Positions 1 to 38,068 of a stretch of DNA of 38,068 bases are shown one piece after another. The stretch comes from Escherichia coli (GTDB lineage Bacteria; Pseudomonadota; Gammaproteobacteria; Enterobacterales; Enterobacteriaceae): assembly GCF_003334385.1 (NCBI RefSeq), contig NZ_QOWN01000042.1; one strand, 5' to 3'. Positions within the stretch are counted from its first letter, which is position 1, and each line of letters begins with the position of its first letter. The notes under the pieces were generated by a model that searched no databases, was not told where the DNA came from, and worked only from the letters and a program-made list of their open reading frames with translations. A program made the translations under genes and the position numbers.

Positions 1-470
1 TTATCCACCGTTGCGCTGTCGCCGGTGATATCAATACCGTGACCGCCGCCGCTGACATCCAGATCGCCGTCCTGAATAACTTTTCCGTTATTACCGTTGA
101 TTTCCGTACCGGTGGAATCCTTGCCGTCAACGGTGGTTTTGCCGTTGTTGTTTGCCGTGGCGTCATCACCATTAATCTGGGTGCCGGTGCCACCGTTGGT
201 GATGGTGCTCTCGCCTTCGTTATTGACGATGGCCTTGTCACCGTCGATCTGGATACCCATGGACTCCGGATCGGTGACGGTCATGGTGCCCTTGTTATCC
301 ACCGTCGCGCTGTCACCGGTGATATCAATACCGTGACCGCCGCCGCTGACATCCAGATCGCCGTCCTGAATCACTTTCCCGTTATTACCGTTGATTTCCG
401 TACCGGTGGAATCTTTACCGTCAACGGTGGTTTTGCCATTGTTGTTTACTGTGGCATTATCACCCGTAAT
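1..470. repeat. Tandem 294-bp (98-codon) coding repeat inside ydbA passenger domain; copies start at 1 and 295 and are near-identical for ~165 bp
   Basis: Direct comparison of 1..165 with 295..460 (ttatccaccgt.gcgctgtc.ccggtgatatcaataccgtgaccgccgccgctgacatccagatcgccgtcctgaat...). Confidence 0.8.
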
Positions 471-1124
471 AACAAGCTCACCGTTGTGATTATATTGCCA
501 CTTCGTTGCGCCATCTGCGCTCACCCCTTCAAGGGCAACAGTGTTATTCGCTTCATCAATCTGCCAAAGATTAATCGTTGCCTTACGACCATTGCTATCT
601 TGCAGAGATATAGTCCCGTCAGCATTCTCGGTATAAGTAAAAACTGAATCGCGAATAGTTAACGTTTTTTCTGTTTTATCGAGAATAACGTCATTATTAA
701 ACGAAACCGGTTTGGGAGGTGTAGGCGTATCATCCGGATCGTCCGGTATTATCTCATCTCCGCCAGGAGTTGGGGGAACTGGAGTGTCGTCTGATTCATC
801 ATCAGGGGGTGTCGGTGGGAGTGGAGAATTGTTGCGATGATGATGATCATCATCGTCGTTTAGTTCCACTACGGCTAAGGCCGTGATTAACGCAGCAGCG
901 CCTGTGGAAAGCCATGGCATCAGGTTTTGTTCGACTAAAGGAGAGCATTCAGAGGGTAAGCGTTTAAGCTCTTCCGGACTGAGTTTTCCTGGGTCTGCCG
1001 GACAAGTCACATTGGTATTTTTCTTTTCACCTGTGGTGGTTTCTACCTCTGTGATATCTGCCGCCCAACCCTGACCACTCAGAGCTAATGCAATACAGGC
1101 CGACAATAGAGTTTTCCTTTGCAT
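1..1124 (-). CDS. ydbA: Autotransporter-like outer membrane protein, 5' portion (partial; continues past window start); N-terminal signal peptide MQRKTLLSACIALALSGQGWA then Pro/Asp-rich linker and ~98-aa passenger repeats
   Basis: Manual minus-strand translation from ATG at 1124..1122 gives a signal peptide and continuous repeat-rich frame to position 1. Not in the ORF track because no stop lies within the window. Position next to paaY matches ydbA. In K-12 ydbA is an IS-disrupted pseudogene; intactness cannot be judged here. Confidence 0.6.
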   Translation of the reverse strand, partial: MQRKTLLSACIALALSGQGWAADITEVETTTGEKKNTNVTCPADPGKLSPEELKRLPSECSPLVEQNLMPWLSTGAAALITALAVVELNDDDDHHHRNNSPLPPTPPDDESDDTPVPPTPGGDEIIPDDPDDTPTPPKPVSFNNDVILDKTEKTLTIRDSVFTYTENADGTISLQDSNGRKATINLWQIDEANNTVALEGVSADGATKWQYNHNGELVITGDNATVNNNGKTTVDGKDSTGTEINGNNGKVIQDGDLDVSGGGHGIDITGDSATVDNKGTMTVTDPESMGIQIDGDKAIVNNEGESTITNGGTGTQINGDDATANNNGKTTVDGKDSTGTEINGNNGKVIQDGDLDVSGGGHGIDITGDSATVD

Positions 1125-1393
1125 AATAAATCCTTCTGGCGAATATAAAGAAAGCCGGATGCACTAACCCGACCAATTAGTTATTTAAAACATAGAAGAC
1201 ATCCAATATTGCCAGTAGATTATTATCTAATCAAACATACTTTCCTATAATTCACAATTATAATTCAGGTGAATAAAAAAAGACCATGAAATATATAAAT
1301 TGTGTATATAATATAAATTACAAATTAAAACCACATTCTCATTATAAATAATTATATGATGAAAAAACGGTATGAATTAATACTCAAATAAAT

Positions 1394-1422
1394 AAAGCAG
1401 AGCTTAAACATAACTCTGCTTT
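1394..1422 (-). terminator. Stem-loop (aaagcagag / ctctgcttt) just 3' of paaY, followed on the minus strand by a T-rich tract; probable paaXY terminator
   Basis: Inverted repeat read directly, 30 bp downstream of the paaY stop. Confidence 0.4.
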
Positions 1423-1454
1423 ATAATTAAAGGGACAAAATAATTTTACATCTG

Positions 1455-2045
1455 TTACTGTTTCGGTCGCAGATTCTCATCAAATACCAGGCGTTTCCTG
1501 CCAGGTTCAATTTCCCGCAATGGCTCGACTTGATGTAACGTCTGCTTACAGCGTGTCACCAGCACCTGGTACTCATGCGTACCCTGCTTTTTCCATGCCA
1601 ACTCCTGCTCACTGAGTTCACGAATCGCTTTCGCCGGGCTGCCGACAATCAGGTAATTAGCTGGTATTTCTGCTTTGGCTTTCACAAATGCGGATGCACC
1701 AACAATGCTGTTCTCGCCAATCACCGCACCGTCCATCACTACCGCGTTCATTCCCACTAATGCATTGCGGCGGATAATGCAGCCGTGAAGGATAGCGCTA
1801 TGACCAATATGTCCATCTTCTCCTACAACAGTATCCTGCTCGGGAAAACCGTGCATAACGCAATTATCCTGAATGTTCGCGCCATCTTTCACCACGATAC
1901 GACCAAAATCGCCACGCAGGCTGGCATTTGGCCCAACGTAAACGCCCTTGCCGAGAATAACATCGCCGATCAATACCGCTGTCGGATGGACAAAACTCTC
2001 TTCTGGCACAACCGGAGTCAGACCGTCTATCTGATAAATTGGCAT
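1455..2045 (-). CDS. paaY: PaaY, hexapeptide-repeat (gamma-carbonic-anhydrase-like) acyl-CoA thioesterase of the phenylacetate pathway
   Basis: 196-aa ORF with left-handed beta-helix hexapeptide repeats; last gene of the paa cluster after paaX. Confidence 0.85.
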
Positions 2046-8252: not shown

Positions 8253-9019
8253 TAGCGTCCTTTAAAGTCGGGCGTGCGTTTTTGTAAGAAAGCGGAGATG
8301 CCTTCATGACGATCTTCTGTTGCCGCCAGCAAGGTGAATAACTGTCGCTCCTGGGCAAGTCCGGCTTGCAAAGCCACTTCCTGCGACTGGCGCAGCGCTT
8401 GCTTTGCCGCTTGTAAGGCCAGCGGCGAGTGACGTGCCATTTTCGATGCCAGCTGTAAGGCGTATTCGAGGGTTAAATCGCTGGGGAAGACGTCGCTAAC
8501 CAGCCCGGCCTGCTGTGCTTGCTGAGCGGTGATACTTTCTCCGCTCAGCACCATTTTGCTGGCTAACGATTTACCGACACTACGGATTAAACGTTGCGTT
8601 CCGCCTGCGCCAGGCATGATGCCGAGAGTGATTTCCGGCAACCCAAAACGCGCGTTCTCTCCGGCAACCACCACATCGCACAACAATGCCAGTTCGCAAC
8701 CCGCCCCAAGCGCGTAACCATTGACGGCTGCGATAAGTGGTTTATTAAAGGCCTGCAATCGCGCCCATAGCTGCGGACGTGTATCGTTTAAGGTGGCCGC
8801 GAGATCTTTTTCTGCCATTTCGTTGAGATCGGCCCCAGCGGCAAAAAAGCGTGCATTACCGGTAATCACACAGACCGAAATGCTGGTATCGGTAGCCGCA
8901 GCTTCCAGTTCATTTACCAGTTGCATCAGCAGGGCATTATTTAGCGCATTACGTGCGGCGGGACGGTTAAGGGTCAGCAACAATACTCGTTGCTGACGGC
9001 TGACGATCAGTTCGCTCAT
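8252..9019 (-). CDS. paaF: PaaF, crotonase-family 2,3-dehydroadipyl-CoA hydratase
   Basis: 255-aa enoyl-CoA hydratase-fold ORF; ATGA overlap with paaE stop. Confidence 0.85.
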   Translation of the reverse strand: MSELIVSRQQRVLLLTLNRPAARNALNNALLMQLVNELEAAATDTSISVCVITGNARFFAAGADLNEMAEKDLAATLNDTRPQLWARLQAFNKPLIAAVNGYALGAGCELALLCDVVVAGENARFGLPEITLGIMPGAGGTQRLIRSVGKSLASKMVLSGESITAQQAQQAGLVSDVFPSDLTLEYALQLASKMARHSPLALQAAKQALRQSQEVALQAGLAQERQLFTLLAATEDRHEGISAFLQKRTPDFKGR

Positions 9020-10086
9020 GCCATCCCCTTCGCGTCAAAGTCAACCACCACATCGCTGGTCAGCGGCAGTGCCTGGCAACTCAACACATAACCTGCGGCC
9101 AGTTCATCCGGTTCCAGACTGTAATTGGTTTCCATCGCCACTTTGCCACGCAGCACTTTGCATTTGCAGGTCGCACAGACGCCGCCTTTGCAGGCATAGG
9201 GCAGATCCGCCCCCTGGCGCAATGCCGCATCGAGAATGCTTTCATCGTCGGCATTAAGCACGATTTCCCGATCCCGCCCATCCTGACGTACAGTCACTTT
9301 TTGTCCGTCACTTTGCACGTTAACGCTACGTTTGACGCGCGTGCCAGGCGTATTAAACCGCTCCAGATGAATGGTTTTATCTGGCATTCCCAGTGCTTTT
9401 AAGGCGGTTTCCGCGTCATCCATCATCGCCGCCGGACCACAAATAAATGCCTCATCATAAAGACGAAAATTAATGAGCGAGGCCCCAAGTGACTGTAATT
9501 TTTCACCGTCAATACGCCCGTGAAGCAGATCGCTGTCGAGGGTTTCCTGACTGAAAATGCACAACAACTGTAAACGCTGAGGATATTTGTCTTTCAGGTC
9601 TGCCAGTGCCTAGCGAAACATCATGCTCTGGCTGGTACGGTTACCGTAGATCAGGGTGAACTGACTTTCAGGCTCGGTTTGTAAAGTGGTGGCGATAATC
9701 GCCAGCATTGGCGTAATACCTGATCCTGCTGCAATTGCCAGATAGCGCCCCTGGCGTTCGGCCTGCGGCTGATAGCCGAAATGCCCCTGCGGCACCATGA
9801 CCTCCAGCGTCATACCCTGGCGGATGTGTTCGCGGGCATAGCGGGAGAAACGTCCGCCTTCAATGGCTTTCACCGCCACACTAATTTCGCCAGGCAGATA
9901 GCTGCGGCAAATGGAGTAACAACGGCGTAATTCTTCACCATCAAAGCTGGCTTTTAAGGTCAAATGTTGACCGGGGCGAAAGCGATACGCCTCCTGCAAA
10001 GGCTGGGGCACCGCAAAGGTAATGGTCACCGCATCACGGGTTTCCGACTCGACTTTTGCCACTGTTAAGGAATGAAACGTTGTCAT
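9016..10086 (-). pseudogene. paaE: PaaE, reductase subunit (ferredoxin-NADP reductase-like with C-terminal 2Fe-2S domain) of the phenylacetyl-CoA epoxidase, interrupted by an in-frame TAG at 9612..9610 (codon 159)
   Basis: ORFs 9610..10296 and 9016..9567 are in the same frame. Manual translation across the junction reads ...SQSMMFR*ALADLKDKYPQRLQLLCIFSQE... From ATG 10086 the gene would be 356 codons apart from this one stop. Confidence 0.7.
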
Positions 10087-29256: not shown

Positions 29257-29284
29257 ATGCTCTGGATAAGGATTATCCAATTCT

Positions 29285-29316
29285 AAAAAAAAAAGCCCGG
29301 ACGACTGTTCGGGCTT
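29285..29316. terminator. Bidirectional intrinsic terminator shared by ydbK (+) and micC (−): A-run, agcccgg/ccgggct hairpin, T-run
   Basis: Hairpin with flanking A10 and T5 runs read directly. Confidence 0.75.
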
Positions 29317-29396
29317 GTCTTTTTATATGTTGGAAAATCAGTGGCAATGCAATGGCCCAACAGAAAATAAAATCTGTGACAATAAAGGCATATAAC
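29287..29396 (-). ncRNA. micC: MicC small regulatory RNA (Hfq-dependent repressor of ompC translation)
   Basis: Minus strand reads GTTATATGCCTTTATTGTCACAGATTTTATTTTCTGTTGGGCCATTGCATTGCCACTGATTTTCCAACATATAAAAAGACAAGCCCGAACAGTCGTCCGGGCTTTTTTTTT, matching the MicC sequence as I recall it; located between ydbK and ompN as described for micC. Confidence 0.85.
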
Positions 29397-29623
29397 CCGC
29401 GCAGAATAACGTATAGCAAATTAAAAGTATAATTTTTATTTTGTATGTATTATCTTCGATACATTCACCAGACTTATTATCATTTCAGAGGAATTATTTG
29501 ATTAAGGTTTTACTTAAGGCGTAACAAATGATATTTATCGGCTAACTGAACTTCTCCTTTAGGATGTTTTCACTCCCCGAAATGGGGATAAAAGGCAAAT
29601 AAAATAACTAAAGGATTTATTCA

Positions 29624-30757
29624 ATGAAAAGCAAAGTACTGGCACTTTTAATTCCTGCCCTGCTCGCCGCAGGTGCTGCACATGCAGCCGAAGTTTATAA
29701 TAAAGACGGCAACAAATTAGATCTGTATGGCAAAGTTGATGGCCTGCATTATTTTTCTGATAATTCAGCGAAAGATGGCGACCAGAGCTATGCGCGTCTG
29801 GGTTTTAAAGGCGAAACCCAAATTAACGATCAACTCACTGGCTACGGTCAATGGGAATACAATATTCAGGCAAACAACACTGAATCTTCAAAAAACCAGT
29901 CATGGACCCGTCTGGCATTTGCCGGGCTGAAATTTGCAGATTACGGTTCTTTCGATTACGGACGTAATTATGGCGTAATGTACGACATCGAAGGCTGGAC
30001 CGATATGCTGCCTGAATTTGGCGGTGACTCTTATACCAATGCAGACAACTTTATGACTGGTCGAGCCAATGGCGTCGCGACTTATCGTAATACTGATTTC
30101 TTCGGTCTGGTAAATGGTCTGAACTTCGCGGTGCAGTATCAAGGTAACAACGAAGGAGCCAGTAATGGTCAGGAAGGCACCAACAACGGACGTGATGTTC
30201 GCCATGAAAACGGTGACGGCTGGGGTCTTTCCACAACATATGATTTAGGCATGGGCTTTAGCGCTGGTGCGGCATACACCTCTTCTGACCGCACCAATGA
30301 CCAGGTTAACCATACTGCGGCGGGTGGTGATAAAGCAGACGCGTGGACTGCTGGGCTAAAATACGATGCTAACAATATTTACCTGGCAACCATGTATTCA
30401 GAAACGCGTAATATGACCCCGTTTGGCGACAGCGATTATGCTGTGGCAAACAAAACCCAGAATTTTGAAGTCACTGCACAGTACCAGTTTGATTTTGGTC
30501 TGCGTCCGGCAGTCTCTTTCCTGATGTCTAAAGGCCGTGACCTGCACGCTGCGGGTGGTGCAGACAACCCGGCAGGTGTTGATGATAAAGATCTGGTTAA
30601 ATACGCCGATATTGGCGCGACTTACTATTTCAATAAAAACATGTCCACCTACGTTGACTATAAAATCAACCTGTTGGATGAAGATGACAGCTTCTACGCT
30701 GCCAATGGCATCTCTACCGATGATATTGTCGCTTTAGGTCTGGTTTATCAGTTCTAA
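29624..30757 (+). CDS. ompN: Outer membrane porin N (OmpC/OmpF-family general porin)
   Basis: 377-aa ORF with signal peptide ([21 protein letters not shown]) and C-terminal ...LVYQF beta-barrel signature. Confidence 0.9.
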
Positions 30758-30816: not shown

Positions 30817-31332
<516 letters not shown>

Positions 31333-31339
31333 CACTAAC

Positions 31340-31364
31340 GCCCGCACATTGCTGCGGGCTTTTT
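31340..31364 (+). terminator. Rho-independent terminator after uspF (gcccgca / tgcgggc stem, T5)
   Basis: Hairpin plus T-run 8 bp after the stop. Confidence 0.7.
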
Positions 31365-31660
31365 GATTCATTTCGCAAATGTGCTGACATTTTCCCCTCT
31401 AATCCGTACCATACACGCCACAGTTTTTTATATCAGATTTCTTATGCTGGGCGTTCCGGCATGACGCATACTCTTCTGATGCCATATAACGAATTGAGTC
31501 GCTTTTAAATGTCGCAAAATCAAGAAATTAGTAAGAAAGAACAATACAACCTGAACAAGTAAGGGCAAAAATCACAACTCTCTGACTCATAAGTATTTTA
31601 CTTATTTTTCAATGTGTTAAATATCATCAGCGACAACAATAAGCTACGATAACCCACTCT

Positions 31661-31710
31661 TTTTTTGCCCCTTTTTTGCCCCTTTTGCAGCGCTTTGCCC
31701 CATTTTTGCC
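31661..31710. repeat. Degenerate ~11-bp tandem repeat (TTTTTTGCCCC ×2, then TTTTGCAGCGC, TTTGCCCCA, TTTTTGCC) in the uspF–sitA intergenic region
   Basis: Read directly. Confidence 0.6.
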
Positions 31711-31822
31711 ATCAACAATTTTCCTCATCAAGTCATTTCAAAGCCTAATAGGTACCCTACTTTTTTCCTCAGTACCACGTCGCCAGCAGGAAACAACCTA
31801 ATCCCGGTTCGGATCTAAAATT

Positions 31823-31841
31823 GCTAATGATAATCATTTTC
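31823..31841. promoter_or_regulatory. Fur box (gCTAATGATAATCATTtTC; 17/19 match to GATAATGATAATCATTATC) in the sitA promoter
   Basis: Match to the canonical Fur consensus ~80 bp upstream of sitA. Confidence 0.7.
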
Positions 31842-31863
31842 ATTTTGTGTTGCTTATGCTATA

Positions 31864-31885
31864 AAACATAGCCGTTGCTATGTTT
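31864..31885. promoter_or_regulatory. MntR operator: perfect palindrome AAACATAGC-cgtt-GCTATGTTT between the Fur box and the sitA start
   Basis: Matches the MntR box palindrome described for mntH/sitA promoters (from memory). Confidence 0.7.
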
Positions 31886-31917
31886 GTTCTAATTTTGCTC
31901 ACTATAGGTACTAAATT

Positions 31918-32832
31918 ATGTACTCAATAAAAAAAGTAACCATGCTCTTGGGGTGCCTCGCCCTCACCTGCTCGATCGCATTTCAGGCGAGTGCAACTGA
32001 AAAATTCAAGGTCATTACAACATTTACCATCATCGCAGATATGGCCAAAAACGTGGCTGGAGATGCTGCAGAAGTCTCATCCATAACCAAGCCCGGTGCA
32101 GAAATTCATGAGTATCAGCCTACCCCTGGCGATATTAAACGTGCGCAGGGGGCACAACTGATTCTCGCCAATGGTATGAATCTGGAATTGTGGTTCCAAC
32201 GCTTTTACCAGCATCTTAATGGGGTTCCAGAAGTAATTGTCTCTTCGGGTGTGACGCCAGTAGGGATCACTGAAGGCCCCTATGAGGGCAAACCTAACCC
32301 CCATGCCTGGATGTCGCCAGATAATGCTCTGATTTACGTCGATAATATTCGTGATGCGTTGATAAAATACGATCCGGCAAATGCACAAACCTACCAACGT
32401 AATGCCGATACTTATAAAGCCAAGATTACCCAAACCCTTGCCCCCCTGCGTAAGCAGATTGCTGAACTCCCTGAGAATCAGCGATGGATGGTCACCAGTG
32501 AAGGGGCTTTTTCTTATCTCGCACGCGATTTGGGGCTAAAAGAGCTTTATCTGTGGCCGATTAATGCCGATCAACAAGGCACGCCGCAGCAGGTACGTAA
32601 GGTTGTTGATATGGTGAAGAAAAATCATATCCCGGCAGTCTTTAGCGAGAGTACGATTTCCGATAAACCAGCGCGTCAGGTTGCGCGTGAAACCGGCGCG
32701 CACTACGGCGGTGTACTCTATGTCGATTCCCTGAGCACAGAAAACGGCCCGGTACCTACGTATATCGACCTTCTGAAGGTTACTACCAGTACGCTGGTAC
32801 AGGGAATTAAAGCCGGGAAAAGGGAGAAATAA
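31918..32832 (+). CDS. sitA: Periplasmic Mn2+/Fe2+-binding protein of an ABC importer (cluster A-I substrate-binding protein)
   Basis: 304-aa ORF with signal peptide; first of four translationally coupled genes in SBP–ATPase–permease–permease order. Confidence 0.85.
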
Positions 32833-33659
32833 TGATGCAATCTGCGGGCATTGTCGTTAATGATGTTACTGTCACCTGGCGTAACGGGCACACAGCACTG
32901 CGCGATGCATCCTTCACAGTACCAAGTGGATCTATTGCCGCTCTGGTTGGGGTAAACGGTTCCGGAAAATCGACGTTGTTTAAAGCGATTATGGGATTTG
33001 TGCGTCTGACCAGCGGAAAGATATCTGTTCTGGGTATTCCCACGCGACAGGCGCTACAGAAAAACCTGGTTGCCTACGTCCCTCAGTCAGAAGAGGTTGA
33101 CTGGTCATTTCCTGTACTAGTGGAAGATGTGGTGATGATGGGCCGCTATGGGCACATGGGTATGTTGCGTATAGCCAAAAAGAGGGATCGTCAGATTGTC
33201 ACCGATGCGCTGGAACGTGTCGATATGGTGGATTTTCGCCATCGACAAATCGGCGAGCTTTCCGGTGGACAAAAGAAACGCGTCTTTCTGGCGAGAGCGA
33301 TTGCACAGCAGGGTGATGTGATCCTGCTGGATGAACCTTTTACCGGCGTTGATGTGAAAACCGAAGCGAAAATCATCAGCCTGTTGAGGGAGTTACGCGC
33401 GGAAGGCAAGACGATGCTTGTCTCAACGCACAATCTCGGCTCAGTCACGACATTTTGCGATTATACGGTCATGGTCAAAGGCACCGTCCTGGCAAGCGGG
33501 CCGACAGACACCACTTTTACAGCCGAGAACCTGGAGCTGGCTTTTAGCGGCGTACTGCGCCATGTCACACTTAACGGCTCGGAAGAAAGCATTATTACTG
33601 ACGATGAACACCCTTTTGTGGCACATCGACCGTCAGCGGTGCAGAGGGAAGCAAGATGA
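32832..33659 (+). CDS. sitB: ABC transporter ATP-binding protein (Walker [10 protein letters not shown], signature LSGGQKKR, Walker B ILLDEP)
   Basis: 275-aa ORF; motifs read directly. Confidence 0.85.
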
Positions 33660-34513
33660 ACGTGCTACTGGAACCCTTCAGCTATGAATATATGCTCAAT
33701 GCGATGTGGGTCTCGGCGATGGTCGGCGGTCTCTGCGCTTTCCTGTCATGCTATCTGATGCTAAAAGGCTGGTCGCTGATTGGCGATGCGCTGTCGCACT
33801 CTATTGTCCCGGGTGTTGCGGGGGCATATATGCTGGGGCTTCCGTTTTCTCTGGGAGCCTTCTTTTCCGGCGGACTGGCAGCGGGCAGCATGCTGTTTCT
33901 TAACCAACGCACTCGCTTAAAAGAAGATGCCATCATCGGCCTGATCTTCTCCTCCTTTTTTGGCCTGGGGCTGTTTATGGTGTCATTGAACCCGACATCC
34001 GTGAACATTCAGACCATCGTCCTGGGCAATATTCTGGCAATCGATCCGGCGGATATCCTGCAACTCACTATCATTGGCATTCTCTCGATCATCGTGCTTT
34101 TTTTCAAATGGAAAGATCTTATGGTGACCTTTTTCGACGAGAATCACGCCCGTGCTATTGGATTGCATCCGGGCAGATTAAAAATCCTCTTCTTCACCCT
34201 GCTGTCAGTTTCGACCGTTGCGGCGCTGCAAACGGTTGGTGCCTTTCTGGTGATCTGTCTGGTGGTGACTCCCGGTGCAACAGCATGGTTGTTAACCGAT
34301 CGTTTTCCCCGCCTGCTCATAATTGCTGTAACTATTGGCAGTGTAACCAGTTTCCTCGGCGCGTGGGTCAGTTACTTTCTGGACGGCGCGACAGGTGGAA
34401 TCATCGTGGTGGCGCAGACACTGCTGTTTCTTTTAGCATTTGTATTTGCGCCCACCCATGGGCTTTTGGCAAATCGTCGGCGTGCGCATAAAGCGCTGGA
34501 GGATCGCTCATGA
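33656..34513 (+). CDS. sitC: ABC transporter permease (Mn/Fe importer)
   Basis: 285-aa hydrophobic multi-helix ORF; ATGA overlap with sitB. Confidence 0.85.
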
Positions 34514-35367
34514 TGGCATTATTACTGGAGCCACTGCAGTTCACCTTTATGAGTCACGCACTGCTGATTTCACTGGTAGTTTCCATACCCTGTGCGCTGC
34601 TGTCGGTCTTTCTGGTCCTGAAAGGTTGGGCACTGATGGGTGACGCGATGAGTCATGCGGTTTTTCCTGGTATTGTGCTTGCCTGGATTCTGAGGTTACC
34701 TCTGGCTACAGGGGCATTCGTCGCCGGAGTATTCTGCGCGGTGGCGACGGGATACCTGAAAGACAACAGCCGAATCAAGCAAGATACAGTGATGGGGATT
34801 GTTTTTTCTGGCATGTTTGCCGCAGGTCTGATCTTGTATATTGCAGTCAAACCAGACGTACATCTTGACCATATTCTTTTCGGCGACATGCTCGGGGTAA
34901 CCATCGGCGATATAATCCAGACGGTGATTATTGCCGGGCTGGTTACACTTGTTATTAGCGTAAAATGGCGGGATTTTTTGCTGTTCAGCTTTGATTATCA
35001 ACAGGCGCAGGTAAGCGGTTTGCATACGAGATGTCTGCATTATGGGCTGCTGTGCATGGTCTCTCTGACCATTGTGGCGACGCTGAAAGCGGTAGGTATC
35101 ATTCTCTCCATTTCTCTGCTCATTGCGCCTGGCGCCATTGCGGTACTCCTGACACAACGCTTTCATATTGCGCTCCTACTGGCGATTGGCATATCGGTAA
35201 TAGTGTCAATGACTGGTGTCTGGTTGTCCTTTTTTATCGACAGTGCACCAGCTCCGACGATTGTCGTCTTATTCGCGGTTGTGTTCATCATGACGTTCAC
35301 CGTTACCAGCATCAACGCACGCACAAAGGGAAACACCCATACACAGGATTTGTCATCACCCAATTAG
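34510..35367 (+). CDS. sitD: ABC transporter permease (Mn/Fe importer), paralogous to SitC
   Basis: 285-aa hydrophobic ORF; ATGA overlap with sitC. Confidence 0.85.
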   Translation: MMALLLEPLQFTFMSHALLISLVVSIPCALLSVFLVLKGWALMGDAMSHAVFPGIVLAWILRLPLATGAFVAGVFCAVATGYLKDNSRIKQDTVMGIVFSGMFAAGLILYIAVKPDVHLDHILFGDMLGVTIGDIIQTVIIAGLVTLVISVKWRDFLLFSFDYQQAQVSGLHTRCLHYGLLCMVSLTIVATLKAVGIILSISLLIAPGAIAVLLTQRFHIALLLAIGISVIVSMTGVWLSFFIDSAPAPTIVVLFAVVFIMTFTVTSINARTKGNTHTQDLSSPN

Positions 35368-35579: not shown

Positions 35580-36164
35580 TTACTCCCTGACAGGGTTCGT
35601 AGGCCACTCAATATCAGGTGCAGTTGATGTATCAACACGGTTCAGCAACACCCGATACTTTTTCCAGGCTTCCAGCAACAAGGTTTCTTCCTCCGTTGCG
35701 ATTTCCAGATCTGCAGCATCCTGAAGCGGCGCAATATGCTCACTGGCTACCTGCATCAGGCTGTTTTTTGTTTCTTCCGCCTCCCGGATCCGGAACAGTT
35801 TTTCTGCTTCTGCATCTTTCACCCAGGCTGTGCCGTTCCACTTCTGAAACTCCCCTTCCGGGGATAACCAGGTAACATTTTCCGGTAACGGACCGAGTTC
35901 AGAAATAAATAACGCGTCGCCGGAAGCCACGTCATAGACGGTTTTTCCCCGATGATCTTCAACGAGATGCCACGATGCCTCATCACTGTTGAAAACAGCC
36001 ACGAAGCCTGCCGGAATATCTGGTGGTGCAATATCGGTACTGTTTGCTGGCAGACCTGTATGAGGCGGAATATATGCATCACCTTCACCAATAAATTCAT
36101 TAGTTCCGGCCAGCAGATTATAAATTTTTATGGTCCGTGCTTGTTCACTCATTCTGAATGCCAT
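35580..36164 (-). CDS. tfa: Phage tail fibre assembly (chaperone) protein, Tfa family (TfaR-like)
   Basis: 194-aa [27 protein letters not shown]..., closely resembling lambdoid Tfa proteins as I recall them; ATG overlaps the stf stop (TAATG). Confidence 0.8.
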
Positions 36165-38068
36165 TATGCGAGCCTCACAATATAGTTAAATGCGATGTTT
36201 TTGACGGTGTTTTCCGCGTTACCAGCAGCGTTAACGGTGATGGTGTGTCCATGTGAACCAATCGCAACAGAGTGCGTATGAGCACCAATACCGACAGTAT
36301 GCGCGTGTGCACCCGCAGATGCTGCTGTGCCGGACAGTGAGTGTGTATGGTTTCCTTCTGAAGATGATTTACCTACCCATTGGGAGGTGCCACTGGTTAA
36401 TGAGCCACTGATACCAACCTGATTAGTCCCGCTAACTTGAGTACTCCCTGCCGGAAACATTCCAGTAGGTTGACTCCCGCTATTCGTTCTGGGCCCAGTC
36501 TGACTATGTTGGTGGGCCCCAGCTGAACTTGTAGAGCCGCTCAGACTGTGCGTATGCGCCCCGGTGTTATTCGTGGATTTAGTGCCGTAATCAAACGACG
36601 ATGTGGTTTTCGTCCCCAAATCCGTACTGGATGCGCTGGCGCTGTGGGTATGCGATTTAATGCCGTCCTGTTCCTGAGACAATACGGCCCGACCACTGGC
36701 AGGTTTGCCCTTAATCGTCCAGCCACGCATATCAGGGATCACGCCTGACGGATAAGCCGCTGCAAGTTTCGGGTATGCAGATTTGTCAAAAGCCTGCCCC
36801 TGCATCAGGGCATAGCCAGACGGAACGGTATCTGATGGCCACGGGATTGGTGCGCCAGGCGGATAAAACTGCTCTGATGGCGTATAGAGTGAATAAACTG
36901 TACCGTCCGTTAACCCTTCCGGCTTATTAGCAGAATATGCTGGTGACGTATGAATCGTCACGCTGGCATTACTGGTATAATCCCATTGAATATTTACACC
37001 AGTCGCATAATTTCCGATTGCAACGTAAATATCGTAAGTATCACCAGATGTATTAACCCAGGCAAAATTTGTAAACCCTGTCAATGTGCGCTGCCATAAA
37101 GCACCAGTAATCCCCTTCGGATTACCATTACCTGCACGCAAAACAAGTTCAGATATACCTGCCTGTTGAGGTGACCCCACGTTAAATCCAGCGCCACCAA
37201 TCAACGTAATTGAAACAACAGAACTCGCCTGTGGCATGGTTACCGTTGCTAATTTGAACCAACCAGCACCACCGCTGAATGACATTGTTGTTGAGTTAAG
37301 CGTACCAATATCTTTCGGCGTCAGTGTTATATCAGCTGAAAGCGCCTTACCATTCACCTTACGGGCAGAAGGTACCCGACCATTCGCATTATCATTAGCT
37401 GCTTTCACTGCTTTCGGTGTCGCGGCAAGCGTTTCAGATGCGCTGTTGGTTGCACTACTGAGCTGGACAATTCCTTTTTGTGTTGTCGTAGCGTCCTGAG
37501 CAGTATATTTCCCGTTAGCAAGGTCATAGGCTGCCTTTACCGACTTTGGCGTTGCCGCCAGCATTTCAGATGTGCTGTTGGTCGCGTTGCTAAGCTGAAC
37601 TATCCCTTTCTGTGCTGTCGTTGCATCCTGTGCGGTGTATTTCCCGTTAGCCAGCTCATACGCGGCCTTAACGGCTTTTGGCGTTGCCGCCAGTGACTCG
37701 GAAGTGCTGTTAGTCGCACTGCTGAGCTGTACTATCCCCTTTTTCGTCGTGCTCGCATCCTCAAGCGCCACGGAGGATGCAATATCCTCTGCCCATTTTG
37801 CCGCTGTCTCAGCGCGCGTTGCTGCAGATTCCGCCGTACTTTTGCTCTGAGCTGCTGCCGTCGCACTGCCAGCAGCCTCTGTCGCCTTCGTGGATGCCGT
37901 CGTGGCGCTACCCTTCGCTGCTGACGCCTGTCTGGTCGCCTCATCTTTTGAAGCAGACGCAGATGATGCCGATGACGACGCCGAACTGGCTGACGATGCG
38001 GCAGCCGTTTTTGAGGATTCTGCGCTGGTTTCCGACGCTTTCGCGTTCGTTTCGGATGTCTTCGCTGC
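36164..38068 (-). CDS. stf: Phage side tail fibre protein (StfR-like), C-terminal ~635 codons; 5' end lies beyond the window
   Basis: Listed ORF 36164..37771 starts at a GTG; the frame stays open to the window edge (…[25 protein letters not shown]… Ala/Ser/Thr-rich repeats). C-terminal part is Gly/Ser/Thr-rich with multiple His-x-His motifs. Confidence 0.8.
37400..37771 (-). repeat. Three tandem ~123-bp (41-aa) repeats inside stf (…[44 protein letters not shown]…)
   Basis: Repeats visible in the translation and nucleotide sequence with period ~123 nt. Confidence 0.7.

What the first reader, a model, noticed from the sequence alone, without database searches (positions are those of the whole stretch)
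1..1454. ydbA autotransporter start with 98-aa tandem passenger repeats and a long AT-rich upstream region
The minus-strand frame from ATG 1124 encodes a signal peptide, a Pro/Asp/Thr-rich acidic linker (…DDDDHHHRNNSPLPPTPPDDESDDTPVPPTPGGDEIIPDDPDDTPTPP…) and then near-identical 294-bp repeats. The 330-bp region between ydbA and paaY is very AT-rich, as expected for a silenced surface-protein promoter. In K-12 ydbA is IS-disrupted further downstream; whether this strain has an intact gene lies outside the window. The repeats are a likely site of recombinational length variation.
Basis: partly seen in the sequence, partly recalled or inferred. Interest (0 to 1): 0.3.

Follow-up and report, generated by a model that had tools for sequence, protein, structure and literature searches.

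The report
Start of the ydbA adhesin gene

Summary
Window 1-1124 (minus strand) is the first 374 codons of ydbA. It encodes a Sec signal peptide, an acidic/Pro-rich linker, a Pfam BigA_N domain and 1.6 copies of a 294-bp (98-aa) repeat. The two copies are 93% identical in DNA; where they overlap in frame, all 7 differences are synonymous. The 330-bp spacer to paaY has 25% GC, against 50.6% for the window.

The sequence matches K-12 over 1-1454, but the strain is not K-12. It has a metal ABC transporter cluster next to uspF, and a stop codon in paaE where the K-12 record compared reads through. The window stops exactly at the first 77-mer shared by two repeat units. That looks like a short-read contig end, so whether ydbA is intact here cannot be told. 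Close relatives are intact (PM7, 2020 aa) or IS-disrupted at different sites (K-12, ML35, 3359).

Repeat number varies among strains: 1, 3, 7 and about 14 copies. Published ChIP data list this spacer as an H-NS-bound "promoter island".

Already known; low interest.

The parts
1..1124 (-). 5' part (374 codons) of ydbA, a BigA/YdbA-family type Va autotransporter adhesin gene; it runs off the window edge
   Evidence: Open frame. 100% identical to K-12 ydbA_1 and to intact ydbA of MS 196-1 and PM7. Pfam BigA_N E=1.5e-33. NCBIfam auto_BigA partial match.
1062..1124 (-). Sec signal peptide, aa 1-21 (MQRKTLLSACIALALSGQGWA|AD)
   Evidence: Sequence features. The pattern, including the [WYF]-A cleavage motif, is conserved in 10 family members. 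Inferred; no predictor was run.
924..1061 (-). aa 22-67: short segment with an invariant Cys pair (C41, C60; CP...LP.EC)
   Evidence: Invariant columns C41, P42, L56, C60; alignment. AF2 pLDDT is moderate (57-62) only for aa 41-60.
867..923 (-). aa 68-86 LMPWLSTGAAALITALAVV: second hydrophobic, Ala/Gly-rich stretch; role unexplained
   Evidence: Kyte-Doolittle (19-residue window) 1.78, higher than the signal peptide at 1.34. It is present in all 10 homologues compared (KD 1.5-2.1), with summed Hessa scale +0.4 to +3.7. AF2 pLDDT <50.
708..866 (-). aa 87-139: acidic/His run (DDDDHHH) followed by a Pro/Asp/Thr-rich linker
   Evidence: Homologues have Pro-rich repeats of variable number at this position. 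AF2 pLDDT <50.
465..707 (-). BigA_N beta-barrel domain (Pfam PF25784), aa 140-220
   Evidence: Pfam i-Evalue 1.5e-33 over the full model 1-80/80. AF2 all-beta, pLDDT 81-89.
153..446 (-). 98-aa (294-bp) passenger repeat, unit 1 of the array (aa 227-324); four rungs of a beta-helix
   Evidence: Repeat register. AF2 strand triplets recur every ~24.5 residues, pLDDT >90.
1..152 (-). Second repeat unit, first 50 codons only (aa 325-374); the window ends at the first 77-mer shared exactly with the third unit
1131..1137 (-). Shine-Dalgarno AGAAGGA, 6 nt before the ATG
   Evidence: Sequence. Invariant in the four E. coli alleles aligned.
1153..1174 (-). 8-bp hairpin followed by a U-rich run in the putative ydbA leader; function unknown, weak evidence
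   Evidence: Terminator-like hit. MFE -9.4 kcal/mol, z -2.55. The pairing is kept through three one-sided changes in strain R2. It is not conserved upstream of the BigA-like allele.
1125..1454 (.). 330-bp AT-rich (25% GC) paaY-ydbA spacer; published H-NS-bound 'promoter island' of K-12
   Evidence: PMC3661553 Table 1, entry 1463061_385 paaY(+)/ydbA(+), H column 'K'.
1286..1351 (+). 21-codon ORF MKYINCVYNINYKLKPHSHYK, annotated in RefSeq as hypothetical protein WP_010723099.1; I take it to be K-12 ynbG from memory, not tested; divergent from ydbA
   Evidence: Annotation; translation. The start codon is lost in strain R2 and the frame is shifted in MMC-J-0078, so it is poorly conserved as a coding sequence.
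1392..1424 (-). Intrinsic terminator of paaXY: 13-bp stem followed by a U-run, starting 31 nt after the paaY stop
   Evidence: MFE -16.1 kcal/mol, z -4.49, 0 of 200 shuffles as stable.
1455..2045 (-). paaY, the upstream neighbour on the same strand
   Evidence: ORF; annotation.

Best explanation
Window 1-1124 (minus strand) is the 5' end of ydbA. ydbA is the E. coli member of the BigA/YdbA family of classical (type Va) autotransporter adhesins.

The intact protein is 2020 aa in K-12-type alleles. It would be exported by Sec through the 21-aa signal peptide. Its C-terminal beta-barrel would insert into the outer membrane and carry the passenger to the surface. These secretion steps are inferred from the family.

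The passenger is a long three-stranded beta-helix. Each 98-aa repeat contributes four rungs, roughly 2 nm by my estimate. Unequal recombination between the 294-bp units therefore changes the length of the stalk, and strains carry from 1 to about 14 units. The BigA_N beta-barrel, the Pro-rich linker and the N-terminal Cys-pair/hydrophobic segment sit at the end farthest from the cell.

Transcription starts somewhere in the 330-bp, 25% GC spacer. In K-12 this spacer binds RNA polymerase and H-NS but yields little mRNA, so the gene is normally silent. The paaXY transcript ends at a strong terminator at 1392-1424.

The gene is often inactivated by insertion sequences, for example in K-12, ML35 and 3359. 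Whether it is intact in this strain lies beyond the contig end.
For: - Identity. Window 1-1454 is 100% identical to K-12 and many other E. coli genomes. 2449 of 5426 complete genomes have a match and 2049 cover at least 80% of it. Synteny is paaX-paaY-ynbG-ydbA-pdxI-ydbD.
- Domains. BigA_N at aa 140-220, E=1.5e-33. In PM7 ydbA, which has 0 mismatches to the window over 1124 nt, BigA_beta and the Autotransporter beta-domain PF03797 (E=8e-19) are found in the C-terminal 1020 aa. The full length matches NCBIfam auto_BigA along residues 402-2020.
- Fold. In the AF2 model, aa 225-374 have pLDDT >90 with strand triplets about every 24.5 residues. The top Foldseek PDB hits are nearly all beta-helix proteins, including Ag43 and TibA, but none is significant.
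- Repeat number. 1 copy in MMC-J-0078 (1673 aa); 3 plus a degenerate 4th in K-12, PM7 and MS 196-1; 7 in 3359; about 14 in R2 (3132 aa).
- Selection. Between units, codon differences are 13-18 synonymous against 4-5 nonsynonymous.
- Silencing. The spacer is a published promoter island with H-NS binding (PMC3661553). ydbA mRNA was 7.7-fold higher (+/- 6.2) in an rpoZ mutant (PMC5811629).
- IS disruption. K-12, ML35, 3359.
- Known classification. BigA is described as having an AIDA-I-like passenger and a NalP-type barrel (PMC3419190).
Against: - The defining C-terminal barrel is outside the window, so for this strain the gene may be a pseudogene.
- No adhesion or secretion experiment on YdbA was found in the library searched.
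- The promoter scan gave no more hits than shuffled sequence (3 found against 2.4 expected), so the ydbA promoter is not located.
- A conserved TM-like stretch (aa 68-86) downstream of the signal peptide is not part of the textbook autotransporter plan and is unexplained.
- H-NS binding is taken from K-12 ChIP data on the identical sequence. It was not tested here.
Confidence: 0.93

Rival explanations
1. In this strain the segment is only the dead 5' stump of a ydbA pseudogene, cut downstream by an insertion sequence as in K-12. No protein of consequence is made.
For: - Window 1-1454 is identical to K-12, where IS2 and IS30 follow nt 2526.
- Close relatives ML35 (IS3-family element at nt 2634) and 3359 (IS1) are also disrupted.
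- About 420 of 1241 genomes with this allele are split at the K-12 insertion site.
- The same window carries a nonsense codon in paaE, so gene decay does occur in this strain.
Against: - The strain is not K-12. It has 8 mismatches in 15.4 kb against a K-12 record, and a Mn/Fe ABC transporter cluster next to uspF.
- The best 25-kb match, PM7, has an intact 6063-bp gene.
- 818 of 1241 genomes with this allele are uninterrupted at the K-12 site, and the split ones listed are K-12 laboratory derivatives.
- The window itself shows no stop or frameshift in 374 codons.
Confidence: 0.3
2. The tandem repeat is an assembly artefact: reads from one unit were collapsed or duplicated, and the real gene has no such repeat.
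For: The window ends inside the repeat, exactly 77 nt into a 123-nt stretch shared exactly by two units. That is typical of a k=77 de Bruijn contig end. Public draft assemblies hold many 'partial' YdbA N-termini of 236-396 aa.
Against: - The two copies in the window differ at 7% of positions.
- The window sequence is identical over 1124 nt to the complete genome of PM7 and over 1454 nt to K-12 MG1655.
- The same array, with different copy numbers, is present in many complete genomes.
Confidence: 0.02
3. The N-terminus is not a simple cleavable signal peptide followed by passenger. The conserved second hydrophobic stretch (aa 68-86) would be functional. It could be the second hydrophobic core of an unusually long two-part signal, or a membrane-active or tethering peptide at the far tip of the adhesin.
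For: - The stretch is kept in all 10 family members at 35-57% identity.
- It is more hydrophobic by Kyte-Doolittle than the signal peptide.
- It is preceded by an invariant Cys pair and a Trp, and followed by an acidic run.
- It often ends in small-x-small (ALA|V, GIA|V, GIS|L).
Against: - The first hydrophobic region has a conserved, canonical signal-peptidase site of its own.
- An invariant Cys pair argues that aa 22-67 are exported rather than part of a signal peptide.
- The summed Hessa scale is positive (+0.4 to +3.7), so the stretch may simply pass through Sec.
- AF2 is uninformative here, with pLDDT <50.
- Pfam reports no extended-signal-peptide (ESPR) domain.
Confidence: 0.15

Closest known systems
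E. coli K-12 ydbA pseudogene (fragments b1401 and b1405, i.e. ydbA_1 and ydbA_2)
   Same: Window 1-1454 is 100% identical to it. The neighbours are the same: paaY, the 21-aa ORF, then ydbA. The three-and-a-bit 98-aa repeat array is the same in the K-12-type allele.
   Different: The source strain is not K-12. The IS2/IS30 insertion after nt 2526 lies beyond the window and may be absent, as in PM7 and MS 196-1.
Salmonella/E. coli autotransporter adhesin BigA (NCBIfam NF033178; Pfam BigA_N, BigA_3rd, BigA_4th, BigA_beta)
   Same: Same architecture: signal peptide, Cys pair, hydrophobic stretch, Pro-rich spacer, BigA_N, beta-helix, BigA_beta, barrel. A BigA-like allele (P0038, 1970 aa) occupies the same chromosomal site, between ydbL and pdxI, in an E. 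coli strain that lacks the paa cluster.
   Different: YdbA scores 1134.5 bits against a curated cut-off of 3400 for BigA proper. N-terminal identity is only about 57%. The BigA spacer is a long PDDGGNT repeat rather than the short linker seen here.
AIDA-I-type self-associating autotransporters (AIDA-I, Ag43, TibA)
   Same: Beta-helical passenger built of short repeats, a C-terminal barrel, and frequent silencing or phase control. BigA passengers are classed as AIDA-I-like (PMC3419190). Ag43 and TibA appear among the fold-search hits.
   Different: Rungs here are about 24.5 aa and are organised in a 98-aa super-repeat. The barrel group is NalP-type rather than AIDA-type. The fold-search matches are not significant.
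H-NS-bound 'promoter islands' upstream of horizontally acquired E. coli genes (Panyukov and Ozoline 2013)
   Same: The paaY/ydbA spacer is itself one of the 78 listed islands (1463061_385) and is marked as H-NS-bound. It is very AT-rich.
   Different: Nothing differs; it is the same element. The sigma-70 scan here did not exceed chance, but it uses a different method from theirs.

Membership tests
Classical (type Va) autotransporter | N-terminal Sec signal peptide | tested here: met
   MQRK + hydrophobic core + GWA|A, conserved across the family. Judged by eye; no SignalP-type tool was available.
Classical (type Va) autotransporter | Beta-helical passenger domain | tested here: met
   AF2 pLDDT >90 for aa 225-374, with regular three-strand rungs. 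Fold-search hits are beta-helix proteins but not significant.
Classical (type Va) autotransporter | C-terminal 12-stranded outer-membrane beta-barrel (Pfam PF03797) | not testable with these tools
   It lies outside the window. It is present in the PM7 orthologue, whose first 1124 nt are identical to the window (PF03797 E=8.4e-19), but absent or separated in the K-12, ML35 and 3359 alleles.
BigA/YdbA family (Pfam PF25784 BigA_N) | BigA_N beta-barrel domain near the N-terminus | tested here: met
   i-Evalue 1.5e-33, model 1-80/80, aa 140-220.
BigA proper (NCBIfam NF033178 auto_BigA) | Whole-protein score above the curated cut-off of 3400 bits | tested here: not met
   The intact PM7 YdbA scores 1134.5 bits. 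YdbA is a relative of BigA, not BigA itself.
Autotransporters with an extended signal peptide region (ESPR, PF13018) | ESPR motif at the extreme N-terminus | tested here: not met
   The Pfam scan of the 374 aa reports only BigA_N and one insignificant hit.
Lipoprotein autotransporters (NalP-like) | Lipobox [LVI][ASTVI][GAS]C after a 15-25-aa signal peptide | tested here: not met
   LSAC occurs, but the Cys is residue 10, inside the hydrophobic core. Homologues read LSLC, ISFC and LSVG, which do not fit a lipobox.
H-NS-silenced promoter island | Strongly AT-rich DNA upstream of the gene | tested here: met
   GC 0.25 over 330 bp against 0.506 for the window.
H-NS-silenced promoter island | H-NS and RNA polymerase occupancy with little transcript | not testable with these tools
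   Taken from published K-12 ChIP-chip compilations for the identical sequence (PMC3661553).

The most novel reading that the evidence does not exclude
The BigA/YdbA family may carry a previously undescribed N-terminal module: a cleavable signal peptide, an invariant Cys pair, then a conserved Ala/Gly-rich hydrophobic helix followed by an acidic run. An autotransporter is anchored by its C-terminus, so this module would sit at the tip farthest from the cell. It could be a membrane-active or self-associating peptide. Alternatively it could be a periplasmic stopper or tether that controls passenger release. Either would be new for type Va secretion.
Probability: 0.12. Interest if true: 0.45.

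Novelty: already known. Interest (0 to 1): 0.12.

Why it matters
It matters little beyond correct annotation. ydbA is a catalogued cryptic adhesin gene. Its upstream region is a published H-NS-bound promoter island, and its domains have Pfam and NCBIfam models.

There are three useful by-products:
- The repeats break short-read assemblies at a predictable point. ydbA copy number and integrity therefore cannot be read from draft genomes.
- Repeat number ranges from 1 to about 14 among strains, a clear case of adhesin stalk-length variation.
- Many ydbA homologues are wrongly labelled 'EntS/YbdA MFS transporter' in public records.

The conserved second hydrophobic stretch is the only feature that might repay an experiment.

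Tried and rejected
- Tandem Repeats Finder on 1-1500 found nothing, because fewer than two copies are in the window. The repeat finder and manual register analysis were used instead.
- I first assumed the window was K-12, given 100% identity over 1454 nt. This was rejected. There are 8 mismatches in 15.4 kb. K-12 is absent from the top hits for 13069-38068. A Mn/Fe ABC transporter lies next to uspF.
- The sigma-70 promoter scan of the spacer gave 3 hits against 2.4 expected, so no promoter is assigned.
- Foldseek against the PDB gave no hit with E <= 0.001. A sequence search of the PDB gave none.
- Lipoprotein reading of LSAC: rejected, because the Cys is residue 10 and the motif is not conserved.
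- ynbG as a conserved small protein: its start codon or frame is lost in two of three other alleles, so it is treated as doubtful.
- The leader hairpin at 1153-1174 as a conserved RNA element: pairing is kept in strain R2, but the element is absent upstream of the BigA-like allele. It remains weak.
- Rfam found nothing in 1-1454.
- The word-index homologue search with aa 1-226 returned almost only partial E. coli proteins. The exhaustive representative search was needed to reach distant family members.
- A literature search for 'ynbG' alone mostly hit a yeast medium abbreviation.
Full report
**Observation**

The minus-strand frame starting at ATG 1122-1124 is open for 374 codons to the window edge. 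An AGAAGGA ribosome-binding site lies 6 nt upstream.

The repeat finder reports one direct-repeat family, 1-176 and 295-470. The spacing is 294 nt and the identity 93%. The longest exact repeat is 56 nt, against at most 13 nt in 200 shuffles.

Tandem Repeats Finder is silent, because only about 1.6 copies lie inside the window.

The paaY-ydbA spacer, 1125-1454, is exactly 330 bp. Its GC is 0.25, against 0.506 for the window.

One nuance: the copies are identical in protein over the 50 overlapping codons, and all 7 nucleotide differences there are synonymous. They are 93%, not about 100%, identical in DNA.

**Identity**

Window 1-1454 is 100% identical to K-12 MG1655 and many other E. coli genomes. 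2449 of 5426 complete genomes have a match.

In K-12 the frame is annotated as the N-terminal fragment of a pseudogene. It is followed after nt 2526 by IS2 and IS30, and then by the C-terminal 'autotransporter domain-containing' fragment.

In strains MS 196-1 and PM7 the same 5' end continues into one 6063-bp frame of 2020 aa. PM7 has 0 mismatches to the window over 1124 nt.

**Architecture**

From the N-terminus the parts are:
- aa 1-21: signal peptide, MQRKTLLSACIALALSGQGWA|AD.
- aa 22-67: a short segment with an invariant Cys pair.
- aa 68-86: a second hydrophobic stretch.
- aa 87-139: an acidic/His run and a Pro-rich linker.
- aa 140-220: Pfam BigA_N, E=1.5e-33.
- From aa 227: the 98-aa repeats.

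In the intact orthologue the C-terminal 1020 aa carry BigA_beta (PF25783) and the Autotransporter beta-domain (PF03797, E=8e-19). NCBIfam auto_BigA aligns along residues 402-2020. It scores 1134.5 bits, below the 3400-bit cut-off for BigA proper.

An AlphaFold2 model of the 374 residues gives pLDDT >90 for aa 225-374. Three-strand rungs recur about every 24.5 residues, so one 98-aa unit is four turns of a beta-helix. BigA_N is all-beta with pLDDT 81-89. Residues 1-39, 67-102 and 107-130 are below 50.

Foldseek against the PDB gave no significant hit, although the list is almost entirely beta-helix proteins, including Ag43 and TibA. A sequence search of the PDB found nothing.

**The strain is not K-12, and the window ends at a contig break**

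Against a K-12 record there are 8 mismatches in 15.4 kb.

The best 25-kb match is the pig isolate PM7, followed by ML35 and 1303.

For 13069-38068 no K-12 genome is among the top hits, and the best match is 99.1%.

The window carries uspF followed by a four-gene Mn/Fe ABC transporter cluster.

The last 77 nt of the window are the first 77-mer of a 123-nt stretch shared exactly by repeat units 2 and 3. A k=77 de Bruijn assembler would stop there. Consistent with this, public drafts hold hundreds of 'partial' YdbA N-termini of 236-396 aa.

I infer that the window is the end of a short-read contig. Copy number and integrity of ydbA in this strain therefore cannot be read from it.

**Is the gene intact here?**

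This cannot be told. Relatives go both ways:
- PM7 and MS 196-1 are intact.
- K-12 has IS2 and IS30.
- ML35 has an IS3-family element at nt 2634.
- 3359 is cut by IS1.

Among 1241 genomes with this allele, 818 are uninterrupted at the K-12 insertion site. The split ones listed are K-12 laboratory derivatives. I put about 0.3 on 'pseudogene in this strain'.

**Length variation**

The 98-aa unit was counted in full-length genes:

| Strain | Copies | Protein |
|---|---|---|
| MMC-J-0078 | 1 | 1673 aa |
| K-12 / PM7 / MS 196-1 | 3 plus a degenerate 4th | 2020 aa |
| 3359 | 7 | truncated by IS1 |
| R2 (paa operon reduced to a paaY remnant) | about 14 | 3132 aa |

Differences between units are mostly synonymous: 13-18 synonymous codons against 4-5 nonsynonymous.

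**Upstream region**

The spacer contains four features.
- *paaXY terminator.* A strong intrinsic terminator lies at 1392-1424: a 13-bp stem, -16.1 kcal/mol, z -4.5.
- *Small ORF.* A 21-codon ORF at 1286-1351 (+) is annotated in RefSeq as WP_010723099.1. From memory I take this to be K-12 ynbG, and one paper mentions ynbG as lying next to the paa operon (PMC9976479). Its start codon or frame is lost in two of three other alleles.
- *Leader hairpin.* A weak hairpin with a U-run lies at 1153-1174. Its pairing survives three one-sided changes in strain R2, but it is absent upstream of a BigA-like allele.
- *Promoter.* No sigma-70 promoter stands out above chance.

Published work lists this spacer (1463061_385, paaY/ydbA) among 78 'promoter islands'. 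These bind RNA polymerase and H-NS but give little full-length transcript (PMC3661553). ydbA mRNA was 7.7-fold higher (+/- 6.2) in an rpoZ mutant (PMC5811629). A sigma-54 ChIP-seq site lies inside paaY at window 1585-1601, oriented toward ydbA (PMC4591121).

The 'silenced surface-protein promoter' reading is therefore supported by published data on the identical K-12 sequence.

**The unexplained part**

An exhaustive search with aa 1-107 found 42 representatives. They include full-length autotransporters of 1339-1975 aa at 35-57% identity. All 10 N-termini compared share the following:
- the signal peptide;
- an invariant CP...LP.EC Cys pair;
- a Trp;
- an Ala/Gly-rich hydrophobic stretch, followed by an acidic/Asn/His run;
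- Pro-rich repeats of variable number.

The stretch scores 1.5-2.1 on Kyte-Doolittle, above the signal peptide. Its summed Hessa scale is +0.4 to +3.7, which is borderline for membrane insertion.

A TM-like segment downstream of a cleavable signal is not part of the usual autotransporter plan. I could not decide between three readings: a marginal helix that passes through Sec, a second core of a long two-part signal, or a tip peptide with a function of its own.

A BigA-like allele (P0038, 1970 aa) occupies the same chromosomal site in a strain lacking the paa cluster. The locus is therefore allelically very diverse.

**Comparison and verdict**

This is the known ydbA gene start. It belongs to the BigA/YdbA family (BigA_N met) and is not BigA proper (cut-off not met).

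The type Va assignment holds for the signal peptide and the beta-helix. The barrel could be tested only in orthologues with an identical 5' end.

BigA has been described as having an AIDA-I-like passenger on a NalP-type barrel (PMC3419190). It is treated as an adhesin that often decays to a pseudogene in host-adapted Salmonella (PMC8011750).

Nothing here is new in kind.

Noticed in passing
window 9610-9612 (minus strand), inside paaE 9016-10086: paaE carries an in-frame stop at codon 159 (...SQSMMFR*ALADL...). The window has A at 9612 where the K-12 record has G. The phenylacetate epoxidase reductase subunit is therefore probably truncated in this strain.
   Followed up: partly
window 1-77: The window ends exactly at the first 77-mer of a 123-nt stretch shared perfectly by two ydbA repeat units, as expected for a k=77 short-read contig end. 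Public drafts hold hundreds of 'partial' YdbA N-termini of 236-396 aa.
   Followed up: yes
window 867-923 (minus strand), aa 68-86 of YdbA: A second hydrophobic Ala/Gly-rich stretch follows the signal peptide and an invariant Cys pair (C41, C60). It is conserved in all BigA/YdbA-family N-termini compared. Its role is unknown.
   Followed up: partly
window 1585-1601 (minus strand), inside paaY: Exact match to the published sigma-54 ChIP-seq site TTGGCATGGAAAAAGCA (Bonocora 2015, site IS16). It lies 464 nt upstream of the ydbA ATG and points toward it, with the paaY terminator in between.
   Followed up: partly
window 1286-1351 (+): A 21-codon ORF MKYINCVYNINYKLKPHSHYK (RefSeq WP_010723099.1; ynbG from memory). 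Its start codon is lost in strain R2 and its frame is shifted in MMC-J-0078, so coding conservation is poor.
   Followed up: partly
window 1153-1174 (minus strand): An 8-bp hairpin plus U-run about 20 nt before the ydbA Shine-Dalgarno. Three one-sided substitutions in strain R2 keep the pairing, but the element is absent upstream of the BigA-like allele in L008.
   Followed up: partly
L005 3732-13130 and other hits at 85-87% identity: Many ydbA homologues in public records are named 'EntS/YbdA MFS transporter'. This looks like a name mix-up (YdbA/YbdA) that has spread through annotation.
   Followed up: no
window 30826-35367 (+): uspF is followed by a four-gene Mn/Fe-type metal ABC transporter: a binding protein, an ATPase and two permeases. 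K-12 genomes are absent from the best matches to this part of the window.
   Followed up: partly
window 29279-29399 (-) and 35623-35821 (-): Rfam matches to the MicC sRNA (122 bits), just upstream of the 377-aa ORF at 29624-30757 that I take to be ompN, and to IS009 (227 bits), inside the 194-aa ORF at 35580-36164.
   Followed up: no
window 35580-37771 (minus strand): Two ORFs (194 and 535 aa) have no NCBIfam hit. Matching genomes annotate a prophage tail-fibre protein in this part, which is where identity to other genomes drops to about 99%.
   Followed up: no
L008 4001-9913: A BigA-like allele (1970 aa; about 57% identical at the N-terminus, nearly identical in the C-terminal barrel) sits at the ydbA site between ydbL and pdxI, in an E. 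coli strain with no feaR-paa cluster. The locus carries very divergent alleles.
   Followed up: partly
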